Source: Octopus sinensis
Taxonomy: Eukaryota
NCBI RefSeq assembly: GCF_006345805.1
Contig: NW_021834050.1
Span: forward strand, 1 to 27,011
Direction of reading: 5' to 3'
DNA length: 27,011 nt
Below are positions 1 to 18,917 of this stretch, in pieces. The notes under the pieces were generated by a model. It made no database searches and was not told the origin of the DNA. It worked only from the letters and a program-made list of their open reading frames with translations. How positions within the stretch are numbered: position 1 is the stretch's first letter; each line of letters begins with the position of its first letter. The translations under genes were made by a program, and so were the position numbers.

Positions 1-303
1 CGAAAGGATGAAATTCAAAGTCGACCTCGGCGGAATTTGAACTCAGAACGTAGCGGCAGACGAAATACCTATTTCTTTACTACCCACAAGGGGCTAAACA
101 TAGAGGGGACAAACAAGGACAGACAAATGGATTAAGTCGATTACATCTACCCCAGTGCGTAACTGGTCCTTAATTTATCGATCCCGAAAGAGTGAAAGGC
201 AAAGTCGACCTCGGCGGAATTTGAACTCAGAACGTAACGGCAGACGAAATACGGCTACGCATTACGCCCGGCGGCACGCTAACGTTTCTGCCAGCTCGCC
301 GCC
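1..303 (-). mobile_element. tRNA-derived SINE 'family A', tandem array (one full unit plus a partial unit running off the window start)
   Basis: The reverse complement reads GGCGGCGAGCTGGCAGAAACGTTAG...GAGTTCAAATTCCG (A/B-box-like head), then GCCTTTCAyyCTTTCGGGrTCGATAAATTAAG body, then tail ...GCCCCTTGTGGGTAGTAAAGAAATA, joined directly to GGTATTTCGTC of the next unit (period 184 bp). The same sequence recurs at 3942, 14757 and 17835. Confidence 0.9.
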
Positions 304-3941: not shown

Positions 3942-4128
3942 GGACAAAGCGCTTGGCAGCATTTTGCTCGTATTTTCGTTGCGAGTTCAAATTCCGCCGA
4001 GGTCGAATTTGCCTTTCATCCTTTTGGGGTCGATAAATTAAGTACCAGTTACGCACTGGGGTCGATATAACTGCCTGTCCTTGTTTGTCCTCTCTGTGTT
4101 TAGCCCCTTGTGGGTAGTAAAGAAATAG
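3942..4128 (+). mobile_element. SINE A copy with a diverged head and a well-conserved body/tail
   Basis: GAGTTCAAATTCCGCCGAGGTCG...GGGGTCGATAAATTAAGTACCAG...GCCCCTTGTGGGTAGTAAAGAAATA. Confidence 0.88.
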
Positions 4129-12134: not shown

Positions 12135-12328
12135 GATAATTGTTCTGAGTTACTAATGTTAGCCATTTTACGCATTGGAATTGTATAATAATAAAATTCA
12201 CCCAATAAGTTCATGGAATCGGCTATCTTCTAAAACACGGCTACCAACAGTAATATTTCACTGTGAGACCTTCGTTAATTCATCTTCAAATTTTTGCTGT
12301 GAAGAATGTATTTAATTTTAATCGCTGC
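12135..12328 (+). repeat. left copy of the 194-bp target duplication
   Basis: Identical to 13262-13455 except GTGAAGAAT versus GTGAGGAAT. Confidence 0.97.
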
Positions 12329-13261
12329 ATACGGAGTGTCGCAAGGCTCTCCTGCTATTCCGTCGCTCGGGCAACGCCTGCGGTGGGGGTTCCACCACAT
12401 TCTTCTATAGAGGGTTGGTAGAGGCGAAATGTGAAGACACCTTGGGGGAAACCCTGGGTCTCGACGATAATCAGCTGGCCAGTCTGTTCCGACGTACGTT
12501 CGAGCCGAAGACACTGGACAACTTCCAGAAGTCTCTGGCATGGCAATGCTACGAGGAGCTCTACCTGTTCGGGATAAACTCGCAAGGCACGGTGGCCAAG
12601 ACAGTCCGATGTGTCCAAGATGCGGACGGGATAGGGAAACCGTCCCGCACGCTATTGTTCATTGTTCGGTCGTGTCTGAGGTGTGGGTTTATGCCGAACA
12701 GCTGTTGTCAAGCACACGAAGAGTACAGCTGTCGACTGAGTGTATTAAAAAAATTGACCCACCAGATTTCCTCGCGAAAGAAGGTAAGAATTGTTTTCTC
12801 GTTGTGGTAGCAATTGCGAAAGAGGTGATATGGAAGACGAGAATGAAAGGTATACGGTCAGGCAAGTTCATATCCGGCCCTGGGTTGATGAATTACTTCA
12901 TCTACCACCTGAAAAGGAAGATAGGGCTGGAGAGAAAATGCCTGACTAAAAGAGTGTATGAAGAACGATGGAAGGATGTAGCACGGAAGTTGAGAATGGA
13001 TGACACCACATAAATGTAAATCAGAACGAAACCAAAAGTATCAGTGGTGAGGCGGGGCTCGTGGGGTCCGAGCTGAACCCGCCCCCACTCCACTTGTAAT
13101 GTCTTCCGGTCTGTTTTTTCATTCGATTTTATAATTTTTGCATTTTTGTGAATTTTTGAATTTTTAATCTCATCCTTTTTGTAACCCCATCCGAGAATCT
13201 GACCCCACATCAGGTTGTATTGTCCCCTCTTTGTTTGCCCCTTGTGGGTAATAATAAAACA
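12329..13261 (+). mobile_element. 5'-truncated Tx1/L1-clade non-LTR retrotransposon (ORF2 C-terminus plus 3' UTR)
   Basis: Abrupt GC-richer insert. The reading ...FQKSLAWQCY/RGALPVRDKL...CPRCGRDRETVPHAIVHC...AKEVIWKTR is a zf-RVT/CCHC region typical of L1/Tx1 ORF2. One frameshift near 12552, stop at 13013, T-rich UTR, end GCCCCTTGTGGGTAATAATAAAACA. Confidence 0.9.
12540..13013 (+). pseudogene. Tx1-type ORF2 C-terminal zinc-knuckle fragment
   Basis: C-x2-C-x8-H-x4-C (CPRCGRDRETVPHAIVHC) followed by W and IWKTR motifs; continues upstream in the 12415 frame. Confidence 0.88.
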
Positions 13262-13455
13262 GATAATTGTTCTGAGTTACTAATGTTAGCCATTTTACGC
13301 ATTGGAATTGTATAATAATAAAATTCACCCAATAAGTTCATGGAATCGGCTATCTTCTAAAACACGGCTACCAACAGTAATATTTCACTGTGAGACCTTC
13401 GTTAATTCATCTTCAAATTTTTGCTGTGAGGAATGTATTTAATTTTAATCGCTGC
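13262..13455 (+). repeat. right copy of the 194-bp target duplication
   Basis: 193/194 identical to 12135-12328; the hAT reading continues beyond it. Confidence 0.97.
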
Positions 13456-14756: not shown

Positions 14757-15337
14757 GTTGCGCGCTGGGCGAAATGCCTTGCAGTATTTCGTCTGCCGCT
14801 TCGTTCTGAGTGCAAATTCCGTCGAGGTCGACTTTGCTTTTCACCTTTCGGGATCGAAAGTACCAGTTACGCACTGGCGTCGATATAATCGACCAACTCA
14901 GTTTGTCTGTCCTTGTTTGTGCTCTCTGTGTTTAGCCCCTTGTGGGTAGCAAAGAAATAAGTATTTCGTCTGCCGTTACGTTCTGAGTTTAAATTCCGCC
15001 GACGTCGACTTTGCTTTTCTTCCTTTCGGGGTCGATGAATTAAGTACCAGTTACGCACTGGGGTCGATATAATCGACTTAATTCGTTTGTCTGTCCTTGT
15101 TTGTCCCCTCTGTGTGTAGCCCCTTGCGGGCAGTAAAGAAATAGAAACTTTAGCACGCCGGGCGAAATGCTTTTAGGTATTTCATCTGTCTTTGCGTTCA
15201 AATTCCGCCGAGGTCGGCTTTCCCTTTCAGCTTCTTCGTGTCGATAAATTAAGTATCAGTTGCGTACTGGATTCGATCTCATCAACTGGTCCCTTCCCAT
15301 AAAATTTCGGGCCTTGTCCCTAGTGTAGAAAAGAATA
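14757..15337 (+). mobile_element. SINE A tandem array: two units with the Tx1-like tail followed by an older-type unit with a different tail
   Basis: Junctions GAAATA|AGTATTTCGTC (~14960) and GAAATA|GAAACTTTAGCACG (~15143); the last unit ends ...AAATTTCGGGCCTTGTCCCTAGTGTAGAAAAG. Confidence 0.9.
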
Positions 15338-15615
15338 ATTTCATACAAAGTTTGAAGCGAAATAATTTGTTTTAATTCTTATAATTATTAATAGTATTCA
15401 CTTATCATTTCAGAATACTGCTAATTAATTTTAATCCAATTTGAATATTTAAAAATTTAATATTATTTCAGAACAACCACTTTTGTTCACACCTTTCTCC
15501 AAAATATACGATAACGCGCATATAATGCTAAAAAGCCTTCTTATCGCGTTTCTCTAAATTTTCAATAGTGCATCTTCACCTCACGGCTTACACACCTATC
15601 CGTCCACCACTCCCC

Positions 15616-17583: not shown

Positions 17584-17834
17584 GTTTGCAGCTTAGAACT
17601 TTAAGGTTGAAATATACTTTGCGTTATATCATTCTCATCTTTCGGAATGCGTTGAGCCAAGAGTTGGTCTCAATGTCATCCTGCGACCTCCGATTCACTT
17701 CATCGCTCAAAATTCAGTTCCCAAAATATTGTGCTTGATCGATTATTTGAGAAATGGGAAAATCTTTCACTGATCGTACTATAAATTTAGAAATTGCAGA
17801 ATTTTTATTTCCTCTCAGCTGCTATAAATATATA

Positions 17835-18391
17835 TCTCTTTATTGCCCACAAGGGGCTAAACATGGAGGGAACAAACAAGGACAGACAAAGGGATTAAGT
17901 CGATTACATCGACCCCAGTGCATAACTGGTACTAAACTTATCGACCCTGAAAGGATGAAAGGCAAAGTCGAAATACCTATTTCTTTATTACCCACAAGAG
18001 GCTAAACACAGAGAGGACAAACAAGGGCAGACAAAGGGATTAAGTCGATTACATCGACCTCAGTGCGTAACTGGTACTTAATTTATCGACCCCGAAAGGA
18101 TGAAGGTAAAGCCGACCTCGGCGGAATTTGAACTCAGAACGTAACGGCAGACGAAATAACTATTTCTTTACTACCCACAAGGGGCTAAACACAGAGAGGA
18201 CAAACAAGGACAGACACACGGATTAAGTCCATTATATCGACCCCAGTGCGTAATTGGTACTTAATTTATCGACCATGAAAGGATGAGAGGCAAAGTCGAC
18301 CTCGGCGGAATTTGAACTCAGAGCGTAACGGCAGACGAAATACCGCTAAGCATCTCGCCCGGCGTGCTTACGATTCTGGCAGCTGACCGCC
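17835..18391 (-). mobile_element. SINE A tandem array of three units (the last internally deleted)
   Basis: Single head at 18391; junctions at ~18160 and ~17977; period 183 bp; the third unit lacks the B-box segment via a deletion between TCG microhomologies. Confidence 0.92.
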
Positions 18392-18917
18392 TTTTGAACT
18401 GCTATAGATATAACCTTGAAAATAAGCATAAAGTCCACATGGCACTATCTCTTGTACGGTACTATACTCTACACCAATCTTTAGTTCAAAAGAGAGAAAT
18501 ATCAATATACATACTAATCTATTCAGGTTTTATTATCTGTGTGTTCTCTTTTATGTGTTAATCTAATCGTACAATGCAACAAAAGTTATTACCGATATCA
18601 TTCAATTCGCACAGCCATATATGGAAACTGTGAAAAGTTTTTCACTTGATATAATATGCTTGTCATATCTTGTTTGAGAAAATTGATAATGACGACATAT
18701 ATTGAATTAAGAAGTAGACATTCAGAATCCGGTTTACGTTGCCATTCGACCTATCATTTTATATACTTTGTCAATTAACTATATGTAATACAACTGTGTT
18801 TTTACTAAGCCACCGAAGATCATTGGTGGATGCAAGATGTGCGAGAAATAACAGTTGCAATTTCTTCAAATCACATCAAAATATTTTAGTGAAAAATACT
18901 AGACAGGATAATATTGT

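What the first reader, a model, noticed from the sequence alone, without database searches (positions are those of the whole stretch)
17835..18391. SINE A forms fixed-register head-to-tail arrays with the same junction at three separate loci
Seen: at 1-303, 14757-15142 and 17835-18391 a single tRNA head is followed by ~177-184-bp headless units, each joined as tail-GAAATA|(G/A)(G/T)TATTTCG, i.e. restarting ~47 nt into the SINE between the A and B boxes. Units within an array differ by several substitutions. Known: many Tx1 families are sequence-specific for multicopy small-RNA genes. Inference: either the Tx1 endonuclease targets the SINE's own tRNA-like head and the 5' end joins seamlessly by homology, or the RT jumps repeatedly on (or circles) the SINE RNA, or a multimeric master copy exists.
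Basis: partly seen in the sequence, partly recalled or inferred. Interest (0 to 1): 0.75.

Follow-up and report, generated by a model that had tools for sequence, protein, structure and literature searches.

The report
SINE arrays from a self-targeting LINE
A short mobile element in this animal genome stands in head-to-tail rows with one fixed joint (more than 24,000 exact copies of the joint), and a partner LINE inserts at exactly that spot in every copy examined, so the rows were likely built by copies landing inside one another.

Summary
All three window loci carry one head followed by ~183-nt headless units joined tail-GAAATA|(G/A)(G/T)TATTTCG.

- **Scale.** The exact 24-mer joint (J1) occurs 24,240 times in the genome and its reversed control 0 times. 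In 1.2 Mb of random sample, 16 of 65 SINE A tails are followed by it.
- **Partners.** The unit after the joint can belong to other SINE families (B, B', C).
- **Second register.** J2 restarts at head position ~15 and has 1,761 exact copies. It continues the 14757 array to 15338.

**Main new result.** A young LINE family ("LINE-A") carries the SINE A-type tail. It sits at exactly this site in 30 of 30 copies. In 20 of 20 further copies, plus one followed in full, a SINE head or joint plus the first ~13 unit bases lie directly upstream. The 13-16-nt target duplication keeps the head-type base in 15 of 15 pairs. Rare double-head SINE A insertions at the same site show the same duplication.

**Best reading (0.55).** This is self-targeted nested insertion with a homology-joined 5' end. 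Whole arrays are also retro-copied, and some arrays are duplicated in place.

**Not excluded.** RT template switching remains possible. The tRNA origin of the head and Tx1 clade membership were not confirmed.

The parts
1..303 (-). SINE A array 1: head (303-~252), unit 1 (~251-69), joint J1 at 69/68 (GAAATAGG|TATTTCG), then unit 2 from 68 to 1, cut by the contig end. The head is the 'alpha' type (..GCGTAGCCG).
14763..15144 (+). SINE A array 2: 5'-truncated head (from head position ~31), unit 1 (14785-14959), J1 at ~14960 (GAAATAAG|TATTTCG), unit 2 (14961-15144).
   Evidence: TRF period 184
15143..15338 (+). Continuation of array 2 through the second fixed joint J2 (tail GAAATAG|AAACTTTAGCACGCC, a restart at head position ~15). 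It runs into a body of SINE family B with its own tail (..CCCTAGTGTAGAAAAGAATA).
   Evidence: The J2 class is seen. The exact J2 24-mer occurs 1,761 times against 0 for the control.
17833..18392 (-). SINE A array 3 (the finding): 'beta' head (18392-~18343), unit 1 (~18342-18160), J1, unit 2 (18158-17977), J1, unit 3 (17976-17833) with a 38-nt internal deletion and an A2-type tail (GGGCAATAAAGAGATA).
   Evidence: TRF periods 183 and 145
18400..18407 (-). Upstream copy of the putative 8-nt target-site duplication TATAGCAG, which flanks the whole array 3.
   Evidence: read
17820..17827 (-). Downstream copy of the same 8-nt direct repeat TATAGCAG.
   Evidence: read
12329..13261 (+). 5'-truncated LINE copy. 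It holds the C-terminal zf-RVT domain and is related to LINE-A (76% nt identity over 540 nt of ORF2). Its last ~48 nt are 86% like the SINE A tail. It belongs to a subfamily that ends ..GGGTAATAATAAAAC and is not inserted at J1.
3974..4128 (+). Single 5'-truncated SINE A unit (unit positions 15-183, 83% identity), not in an array.

Best explanation
The fixed joint lies exactly where a young LINE family is inserted in every copy examined, so the arrays were likely built by the same machinery putting SINE A copies into resident SINEs at that site. The 5' end was probably joined through homology, so that no second head remains.

Shown:
- LINE-A has an ORF1 zinc knuckle, an APE-type endonuclease and an RT. 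Its tail is ..GGGCAATAAAGAAATT, the SINE A2-type tail.
- It always sits between a SINE head or joint carrying the first ~13 unit bases and (C/G)GTATTTCGTCTG.. plus the rest of the SINE. This is a 13-16-nt target-site duplication.
- Full-length SINE A copies inserted there with the same duplication and a second head exist, but they are rare.

Inferred:
- The endonuclease nicks the bottom strand just 5' of (C/G)GTATTTCG.
- SINE A RNA is then reverse-transcribed from its tail.
- The cDNA is homologous to the resident head region, so the upstream end anneals and joins seamlessly.
- Each event therefore adds one 'headless' unit 5' of the resident body, which may belong to family A, B, B' or C.
- Insertions at non-SINE sites prefer GGTAT or AGAAAC, which are the cores of J1 and J2.

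Secondary processes:
- Shown: whole arrays are re-copied as one cDNA.
- Shown: some arrays hold near-identical neighbouring units. Duplication or homogenisation in place is the inferred cause.
For: (1) LINE-A 3' ends. A query of LINE 3'UTR only, with no SINE part, gave 30 of 30 copies followed by ATT(G/C)GTATTTCGTCTG...

(2) LINE-A 5' ends. In 20 of 20 copies, LINE base 1 (99-100% identical between copies) is directly preceded by a site ending ..GTATTTCGTCTG(C/T)C. In 19 this is a diverged SINE head and in 1 (L251) an internal joint. One copy was followed in full. It has a 5,365-nt LINE between head+TATTTCGTCTGTCG and TATTTTGTCTGGCG+rest, inside an array with its own outer repeat TTTCCTGCATT.

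(3) The base at -2 is C in 'alpha' heads and G in 'beta' heads. It agrees between the 5' and 3' copy in 15 of 15 pairs.

(4) Double-head SINE A insertions. The pattern found 4 exact matches and 0 in the control. L255 and L252 show resident GGTATTTCGTCTG(T/C)C | AA + a full new SINE A + tail | GGTATTTCGTCTGCC + the rest of the resident.

(5) Only A tails stand at J1. It follows 16 of 65 A tails and 0 of 10 B tails. The 3' partner is A, B, B' or C.

(6) Only about 2-3% of GGTAT sites in the sample lie in the SINE joint context: 33 head sites (46 with array-internal joints) out of 1,747. Yet 16 of 27 GGTAT-type A-tail flanks are J1, roughly a 30-fold excess. A site-specific nuclease explains this.

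(7) Repeats flanking single copies were found for 22 of 30. They include GGTAT.. or AGAAA.. straight after the tail.

(8) The last unit shows more private change than the others: 0.042 against 0.035, last greater than others in 33 of 52 arrays, Wilcoxon p=0.013.

(9) Precedent. Tx1-Mar and SINEU-3 share a target, and tandem SINEU-3 copies sandwich a duplication (PMC4494074, passages read).
Against: - Double-head products are very rare (4 exact) beside 24,240 seamless joints. The seamless 5' join must therefore be nearly obligatory, and it was not observed directly.
- CpG loss shows no age difference: last unit 0.087, others 0.112, p=0.28. With 34 arrays neither measure was significant. The private-change signal may be confounded by subfamily.
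- Arrays with 'alpha' heads (..CCG|TATTTCG) have GG, not CG, at their first joint. This holds for 2 of 2 in the unbiased set. Genome-wide the CG joint has 215 exact copies against 24,240 for GG, which is no more than mutation could give. Simple insertion into alpha residents predicts CG. Repair of a heteroduplex head, or re-copying of arrays, must be invoked.
- LINE-A copies are 98-99% alike, while array units differ by 6-9%. The present LINE burst is therefore younger than most arrays.
- LINE-A's 3' flank is clearly B-type in only 1 of 30 copies, and 0 of 20 copies are followed directly by a B body. In contrast, 13 of 27 arrays in the pattern set end in a B-family tail.
- Two 5'-truncated arrays have no head upstream (L126, L182). 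Nested insertion alone does not give this.
Confidence: 0.55

Rival explanations
1. The reverse transcriptase switches templates. While copying any SINE RNA it reaches GGUAU (head positions 48-52, or AGAAAC at 15-20 for J2). The new cDNA end then pairs with the read-through 3' end of a SINE A RNA (..GAAAUAGGUAU), and copying goes on. The whole array is made in one insertion event.
For: - Target repeats of single copies include GGTAT or AGAAAC straight after the tail, so the RNA 3' region does seem to pair with a DNA end.
- The tail subtype goes with the kind of joint..TAGTAAAGAAATA+GGTAT against ..CAATAAAGAAATA+AGAAAC.
- The head type is uncoupled from the -2 base of the joint. This follows naturally if head and first unit come from the last template.
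- 5'-truncated arrays without an upstream head exist.
- CpG loss is equal along arrays.
- Mosaic elements between families are common.
- Template switching is the usual explanation for module exchange in SINEs (PMC4758252, passages read).
Against: - It cannot give the LINE-A structure: head plus duplication upstream, 15 of 15 concordant pairs.
- It cannot give the double-head SINE insertions.
- There is no clear pile-up of 5' ends at positions 48-50 among truncated copies without an upstream tail, about 6 of ~95. There is therefore no sign of a strong RT stop there.
- It gives no reason for the last unit's higher private divergence.
Confidence: 0.22
2. One or a few multimeric master copies arose once and were amplified as such. 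The same joint at many loci is then simply inherited. Single units arise when reverse transcription starts at an internal tail.
For: - Direct repeats flank whole arrays: L034, L050, L051 (15 nt), L024, and window array 3.
- 5'-truncated arrays lack a head.
- The joint is constantly GG whatever the head type.
- Internal and terminal tails differ in subtype.
Against: - Unit number runs from 2 to at least 10.
- Unit haplotypes upstream of A2-type end units differ from array to array.
- The 3' partners include A1, A2, at least two B variants, B' and C.
- Units do not sort by position across loci, apart from the end-unit subtype.
- It explains neither why the LINE sits at the same site nor the double-head insertions.
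Confidence: 0.12
3. The arrays arise at the DNA level only. Unequal crossing-over, slippage or gene conversion between SINE copies would make them, as proposed for SINE-derived satellites.
For: - Neighbouring units are near-identical in some arrays: L006-L008 at d 0.005-0.027, and L229 and L230 with a minimum d of 0.000.
- The nearest relative lies in the same array for 28 of 86 units, against 1.1 expected.
- Runs of 6-7 exact joints occur on contig C1.
- Unequal homologous recombination is the favoured origin of squamate sSats (PMC10702118, Discussion read).
Against: - It does not explain a joint between a tail end and position ~48 of a head. Aligned unequal exchange between SINE copies cannot create that joint.
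- It does not explain more than 24,000 dispersed short arrays with flanking repeats, nor joints to other SINE families.
- In the random sample, neighbouring units are as different as unrelated ones (d 0.08-0.14).
- It fits as a secondary growth step only.
Confidence: 0.06

Closest known systems
Tx1-Mar LINEs and SINEU-3 in crocodilians (Kojima 2015, PMC4494074; abstract and passages read)
   Same: A target-specific LINE group and the SINE it mobilises share one insertion site with a constant target duplication. Tandem SINE copies arise by sequential insertion.
   Different: There the target is an unrelated Mariner DNA transposon, and the tandem copies are whole elements sandwiching a visible duplication. 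Here the target lies inside the SINE superfamily's own head/body boundary. The duplication is hidden in the repeat, the added units look headless, and the joint reaches more than 24,000 exact copies. Tx1 clade membership of LINE-A was not tested.
SINE-derived satellites (sSat) of squamate reptiles (Vassetzky et al. 2023, PMC10702118; abstract and Discussion read)
   Same: Both are tandem repeats of a part of a SINE, with one longer terminal unit that reaches the SINE end. Both mix short variable loci with longer, more uniform ones. Both suggest a non-random origin.
   Different: Their origin is left open (unequal recombination, or insertion into the same locus), and no site-specific LINE was tied to the joint. 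Their loci can reach ~1000 units and lean to subtelomeres. Here most arrays have 2-5 units, are dispersed and carry flanking repeats. Chromosomal position was not analysed.
SINE multimers and dimeric SINEs: Dip/B1 multimers in jerboa and Alu-type dimers, as cited in PMC10702118 (Discussion read; the primary papers were not read)
   Same: SINE sequences stand head to tail at many loci.
   Different: Those are whole elements in tandem, or one fixed dimer amplified as such. Here units restart at an internal position and their number varies.
Site-specific non-LTR elements co-transcribed with their target (R2 in 28S rDNA; Keno, Kibi and Koshi of the Tx1 clade), as summarised in PMC4494074 (passages read)
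   Same: Both show a strict single target sequence in a multicopy repeat. In both, the 3' flank of each copy equals the target, so read-through RNA can pair with the next target.
   Different: Here the target is a SINE that carries the same LINE-type tail, that is, the LINE's own likely dependant. No paper describing this was found by the searches.

Membership tests
tRNA-derived SINE (SINE2) | Head derived from a tRNA gene with internal pol III boxes | tested here: not met
   ARAGORN found 0 genes in the window. Rfam gave no hit at gathering score and no tRNA hit at E<=10 on the head region. Box-like motifs (GAGCTGGCAGAA, GAGTTCAAATTCC) rest only on recalled consensus sequences.
tRNA-derived SINE (SINE2) | 3' tail shared with a partner LINE | tested here: met
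   The last ~48 nt are 86% like the 3' end of the window LINE. The LINE-A tail ..GGGCAATAAAGAAAT equals the A2-type SINE tail.
tRNA-derived SINE (SINE2) | Short, dispersed, high copy number, flanked by target-site duplications | tested here: met
   About 65 A tails per 1.2 Mb. Flanking repeats of 6-20 nt were found for 22 of 30 single head-bearing copies.
Sequence-specific LINE of the Tx1 kind | APE-type endonuclease plus reverse transcriptase | tested here: met
   Pfam hits on the L227 copy: Exo_endo_phos, RVT_1 and an ORF1 zf-CCHC. The related window copy has zf-RVT.
Sequence-specific LINE of the Tx1 kind | Insertion at one defined sequence with a constant target duplication | tested here: met
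   30 of 30 3' junctions, 20 of 20 5' junctions, and 15 of 15 pairs concordant at the -2 base.
Sequence-specific LINE of the Tx1 kind | RT groups within the Tx1 clade in a phylogeny | not tested
No reference Tx1 or L1 sequences were at hand.
SINE-derived satellite (sSat) | Tandem units from part of a SINE, with one extended terminal unit | tested here: met
   One head followed by 2 to at least 10 units.
SINE-derived satellite (sSat) | Long homogenised arrays and satellite-like chromosomal placement | tested here: inconclusive
   Arrays of 7-10 units have a mean neighbour distance of 0.02-0.054, against 0.091 between arrays. No array above ~10 units was seen, and chromosomal placement was not analysed.
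Dimeric SINE amplified as a unit (Alu-like) | One fixed multimer structure with position-specific diagnostic sites at all loci | tested here: not met
   Unit number, haplotypes and 3' partners all vary.

The most novel reading that the evidence does not exclude
A LINE has specialised on a single target that lies inside its own dependent SINE. LINE and SINE copies therefore nest into SINEs, and each SINE event adds one seamless unit through target-primed reverse transcription plus homology. This would be a retrotransposition-driven route from a dispersed SINE to satellite-like arrays, with tens of thousands of joints. It would also make the SINE population a safe landing pad for its own LINE.
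Probability: 0.5. Interest if true: 0.75.

Novelty: new variant of a known kind. Interest (0 to 1): 0.66.

Why it matters
- **Origin of SINE-derived tandem repeats.** How they start is an open point; the squamate sSat paper leaves the mechanism open. This genome offers a concrete, testable route. There is a defined 13-16-nt target, a young LINE family with many 98-99% identical full-length copies, and SINE products at every stage: single units, double heads, seamless arrays and long uniform arrays.
- **Target specificity.** It would be a case in which a target-specific LINE uses its own non-autonomous partner as the target. That bears on how such elements limit harm to the host, and on how SINE families exchange modules, as in the A-B and A-C chimeras.
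- **Annotation.** More than 24,000 joints mean that repeat libraries treating these arrays as separate 'families' or as plain tandem repeats will miscount SINE copies and ages.

Tried and rejected
- **tRNA and RNA family scans of the head.** These gave nothing.
- **Notes of earlier sessions.** There were none for this genome.
- **Strong RT stop or RNA 5' end at the joint.** The 5' ends of truncated copies without an upstream tail show no clear pile-up at positions 48-50, so this idea was dropped.
- **Plain microhomology (GGTAT) as the sole cause of nesting.** This was rejected. SINE joint-context sites are only about 2-3% of GGTAT sites, yet they take 16 of 27 such insertions.
- **Head type as a test of nested insertion.** This proved ambiguous. 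'Alpha' heads with GG joints speak against the simplest nested model. They can, however, arise by repair of a heteroduplex head, by collapse of a double head, or by re-copying of arrays.
- **Age by position.** With 34 arrays the test showed no significant difference. With 52 arrays only one of two measures was significant.
- **The LINE subfamily present in the window.** None of the 20 copies examined lies at the joint, so it is not the site-specific one.
- **Steps not run.** No read-mapping, complex prediction or structure job was run, because none bore on the question.
- Its tabulation was then made with a query cut from the window.
- **Supplements.** The supplements of the cited papers were not opened. 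Those of PMC4494074 and PMC10702118 may hold junction alignments relevant to the comparison.

Full report
**1. Observation.**

The window is one whole 27,011-bp contig of a 2.72-Gb animal genome. I refer to the element's parts as follows:
- a ~52-nt head (GGCGGCGAGCTGGCAGAA...);
- a 183-nt unit, made of X (117 nt) followed by Y;
- Y, the A-specific part, ending ..GGGTAGTAAAGAAATA.

- 303-1 (- strand): head, one unit, and a second unit cut by the contig end.
- 14763-15144 (+): a 5'-truncated head and two units.
- 18392-17833 (-): head and three units. The third lacks 38 nt.

The joints read GAAATAGGTATTTCG, GAAATAAGTATTTCG, GAAATAGTTATTTCG and GAAATAGGTATTTCG. I call this register J1.

An 8-nt direct repeat, TATAGCAG, flanks the whole third array. 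ARAGORN and Rfam do not recognise the head as a tRNA, so 'tRNA head' remains a resemblance.

**2. It is genome-wide.**

The trimer from the window finds many loci with one head and 2-5 units. The exact 24-mer joint occurs 24,240 times, and the reversed control 0 times. Of the first 100 places listed, 19 fall in three runs of 6-7 joints spaced 182-185 nt apart.

For an unbiased view I drew 120 random 10-kb stretches, 1.2 Mb in all. Elements containing an A tail part fall into these classes:
- 46 single units: HXY 30, XY 15, HXYY 1;
- 9 A-A arrays;
- 7 joints of an A unit to the body of another family;
- 2 cases of an A copy abutting a complete second element.

Of 65 A tails, 16 are followed by the J1 restart. 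None of 10 family-B tails is.

**3.

Head and X are shared by at least four SINE families with different tails: A, B, B' (ending in (ATT)n) and C. The unit downstream of J1 can belong to any of them. In 27 independent arrays found through the exact joint:
- 9 are A-B;
- 3 are A-A-B, plus one 5'-truncated A-A-A-B' (L182);
- 10 are pure A arrays of 2 to at least 10 units;
- the rest are complex or end in another body, one of them (L185) in a B tail.

A second fixed register, J2, joins tails of subtype ..GGGCAATAAAGAAATA to AGAAACGTTAGC at head position ~15. It has 1,761 exact copies and 0 in the control. The window's own 15142/15143 boundary is of this kind and leads into a family-B body ending near 15338.

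**4. Target sites of single copies.**

For 22 of 30 single head-bearing copies a flanking direct repeat of 6-20 nt was found.
- Many repeats begin, straight after ..GAAATA, with GGTAT (L033, L133, L138, L124, L052).
- Others begin with AGAAA(C/T) (L036, L056, L059, L076, L111).
- These are the cores of J1 and J2.

GGTAT alone cannot explain the nesting. Of 1,747 GGTAT sites in the sample, only 33 lie in a head-side joint context (46 when array-internal joints are included). Yet 16 of 27 GGTAT-type flanks of A tails are J1.

**5. The decisive lead: a site-specific LINE.**

One array (L185) is preceded by the 3' end of a LINE whose tail is ..GGGCAATAAAGAAATT, joined in the J1 register.
- A 221-nt query across that joint finds 40 scored loci, all covering the joint.
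- The LINE parts are 96-99% alike, and 98-99% in 18 of 19.
- The SINE units behind them vary in number and family.

With a query of LINE 3'UTR only, 30 of 30 copies are followed by (G/C)GTATTTCGTCTG...

I then fetched the expected 5' ends of 20 copies.
- In 20 of 20, LINE base 1 is 99-100% identical between copies.
- In 19 it is preceded by a diverged SINE head plus TATTTCGTCTG(C/T)C, with 'alpha' or 'beta' head types and different flanks.
- In one (L251) it is preceded by an array-internal joint.

The base at -2 is C behind alpha heads and G behind beta heads. It agrees between the upstream and downstream copy in 15 of 15 pairs.

One copy was read through. It is a 5,365-nt LINE inside an A-A-A-B array that has its own outer repeat.

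This LINE ('LINE-A') has an ORF1 zinc knuckle, an APE-type endonuclease and an RT. It is a strictly target-specific element whose target is the SINE's J1 site, with a 13-16-nt duplication.

The LINE fragment in the window (12329-13261) belongs to a related subfamily (76% nt identity) with another tail. None of 20 copies of that subfamily lies at J1.

**6. Do SINE A copies use the same site?**

A pattern for 'first 13 unit bases followed by a new head' gives 4 exact matches and 0 in the control.

L255 and L252 show the full expected structure:
- resident ..GGTATTTCGTCTG(T/C)C;
- AA;
- a complete SINE A;
- its tail;
- GGTATTTCGTCTGCC and the rest of the resident.

So SINE A is inserted at J1 by target-primed reverse transcription.

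These double-head products are about 1 in 6,000 of the seamless joints. The inference is that the cDNA, being homologous to the resident head region, is normally joined by annealing, which leaves one head. That step is not shown.

**7. Tests between models.**

- **Within-array similarity.** Neighbouring units differ by 0.062 on average, against 0.085 between arrays. For 28 of 86 units the nearest relative lies in the same array, against 1.1 expected. The effect comes from a subset of arrays (L006-L008). Arrays from the random sample are heterotypic (d 0.08-0.14). Arrays of 7-10 units have neighbours as close as 0.000. I take this as growth or homogenisation in place, a secondary process.
- **Age by position.** With 52 arrays the last unit has more private change than the others: 0.042 against 0.035, 33 arrays higher and 17 lower, p=0.013. 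Sequential insertion predicts this. CpG loss does not show it (0.087 against 0.112, p=0.28). With 34 arrays nothing was significant.
- **Against the simplest nested model.**
  - Alpha-headed arrays carry GG, not CG, at the joint.
  - The CG joint has only 215 exact copies.
  - Two 5'-truncated arrays have no head upstream, so arrays are also copied whole.
  - LINE-A is younger than most arrays.
  - LINE-A's 3' flank is clearly B-type in only 1 of 30 copies, and 0 of 20 copies are followed directly by a B body.
- **Against an RT stop.** There is no clear pile-up of 5' ends at the joint.
- **Against one master.** Unit number, haplotypes and partners vary.

**8. Verdict on mechanism.**

Most likely (0.55) is self-targeted nested insertion by LINE-A-type machinery with a homology-joined 5' end. 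Two secondary processes add to it: whole arrays are retro-copied from their head promoter, and some arrays are duplicated in place.

RT template switching guided by the same 5-6-nt homology (0.22) explains several awkward facts. It cannot explain the LINE and double-head structures. It may coexist with nested insertion.

**9. Known relatives.**

The nearest precedent is Tx1-Mar/SINEU-3 in crocodilians. A target-specific LINE group and its SINE share a site in a Mariner element, and tandem SINE copies sandwich a duplication (PMC4494074, passages read).

SINE-derived satellites of squamates have the same overall shape, but their origin is left open (PMC10702118, abstract and Discussion read).

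A recent repeat annotation of an octopus genome lists active L1-Tx1 and many unclassified SINE families. The passages shown say nothing of such arrays (PMC13282606). Whether this window comes from such an animal was not established.

Searches found no paper describing a LINE that targets its own SINE, or fixed-register SINE arrays of this kind. That is not proof of absence, because the library holds only part of the literature.

I rate it a new variant of a known kind.

Noticed in passing
window 12135-12328 and 13262-13455: A 194-nt direct repeat, 99% identical, flanks the 933-nt 5'-truncated LINE copy. This is far longer than the 6-20-nt duplications seen for the SINEs. It could be a very long target duplication or a local rearrangement.
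   Followed up: no
G000 C9:76,607,617-76,624,048 (L152-L156); also C3:123.74-123.77 Mb: The window-type LINE itself stands in tandem, with copies 3,573 nt apart. Several dispersed copies share identical sequence straight after their tail: four with AATTCCAGTCTG.. and four with ACATGGAGGAAAGC.. This hints at further fixed-register or site-specific behaviour in that subfamily.
   Followed up: partly
window 15142/15143; L093, L095, L125, L131 in the random sample: A second fixed joint, J2, links tail ..CAATAAAGAAATA to AGAAACGTTAGC at head position ~15. It has 1,761 exact 24-mers genome-wide and forms runs with a ~217-nt period. Whether another LINE subfamily is specific for this site was not examined.
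   Followed up: partly
L104:327, L104:1493, L139:5887, L126:8304: These are mosaic SINEs. A-type head and 5' X are combined with a B' or C-type 3' X and tail. This suggests frequent recombination or template switching between the families that share head and X.
   Followed up: no
L189, L191, L198: Three arrays hold a unit lacking X positions ~60-117 (X1-59/62 joined to Y1). This looks like a deletion subfamily of SINE A.
   Followed up: no
L020:3169-3567: A tandem array in a different register. Unit positions 27-182 are repeated three times with a 16-nt spacer (period ~172), so it was not made through J1.
   Followed up: no
L030:~1335-1394; L018:~3376: Other tail-to-internal joints with short homology occur. 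A B tail is joined to head position ~41 (..GAAAAAAAT|GCTTAGCGG), and a B tail is fused into X near position 20.
   Followed up: no
L002 and L003 (contigs C11656 and C8854): Two unplaced contigs carry identical 3.5-kb stretches around the same array. They are probably haplotigs or assembly duplicates.
   Followed up: no
5' junctions: Many SINE copies are preceded by one to three extra A residues (..aa|GGCGGCG). The double-head insertions have AA between the duplication and the new head. These could be untemplated additions, or the true 5' end of the RNA.
   Followed up: no
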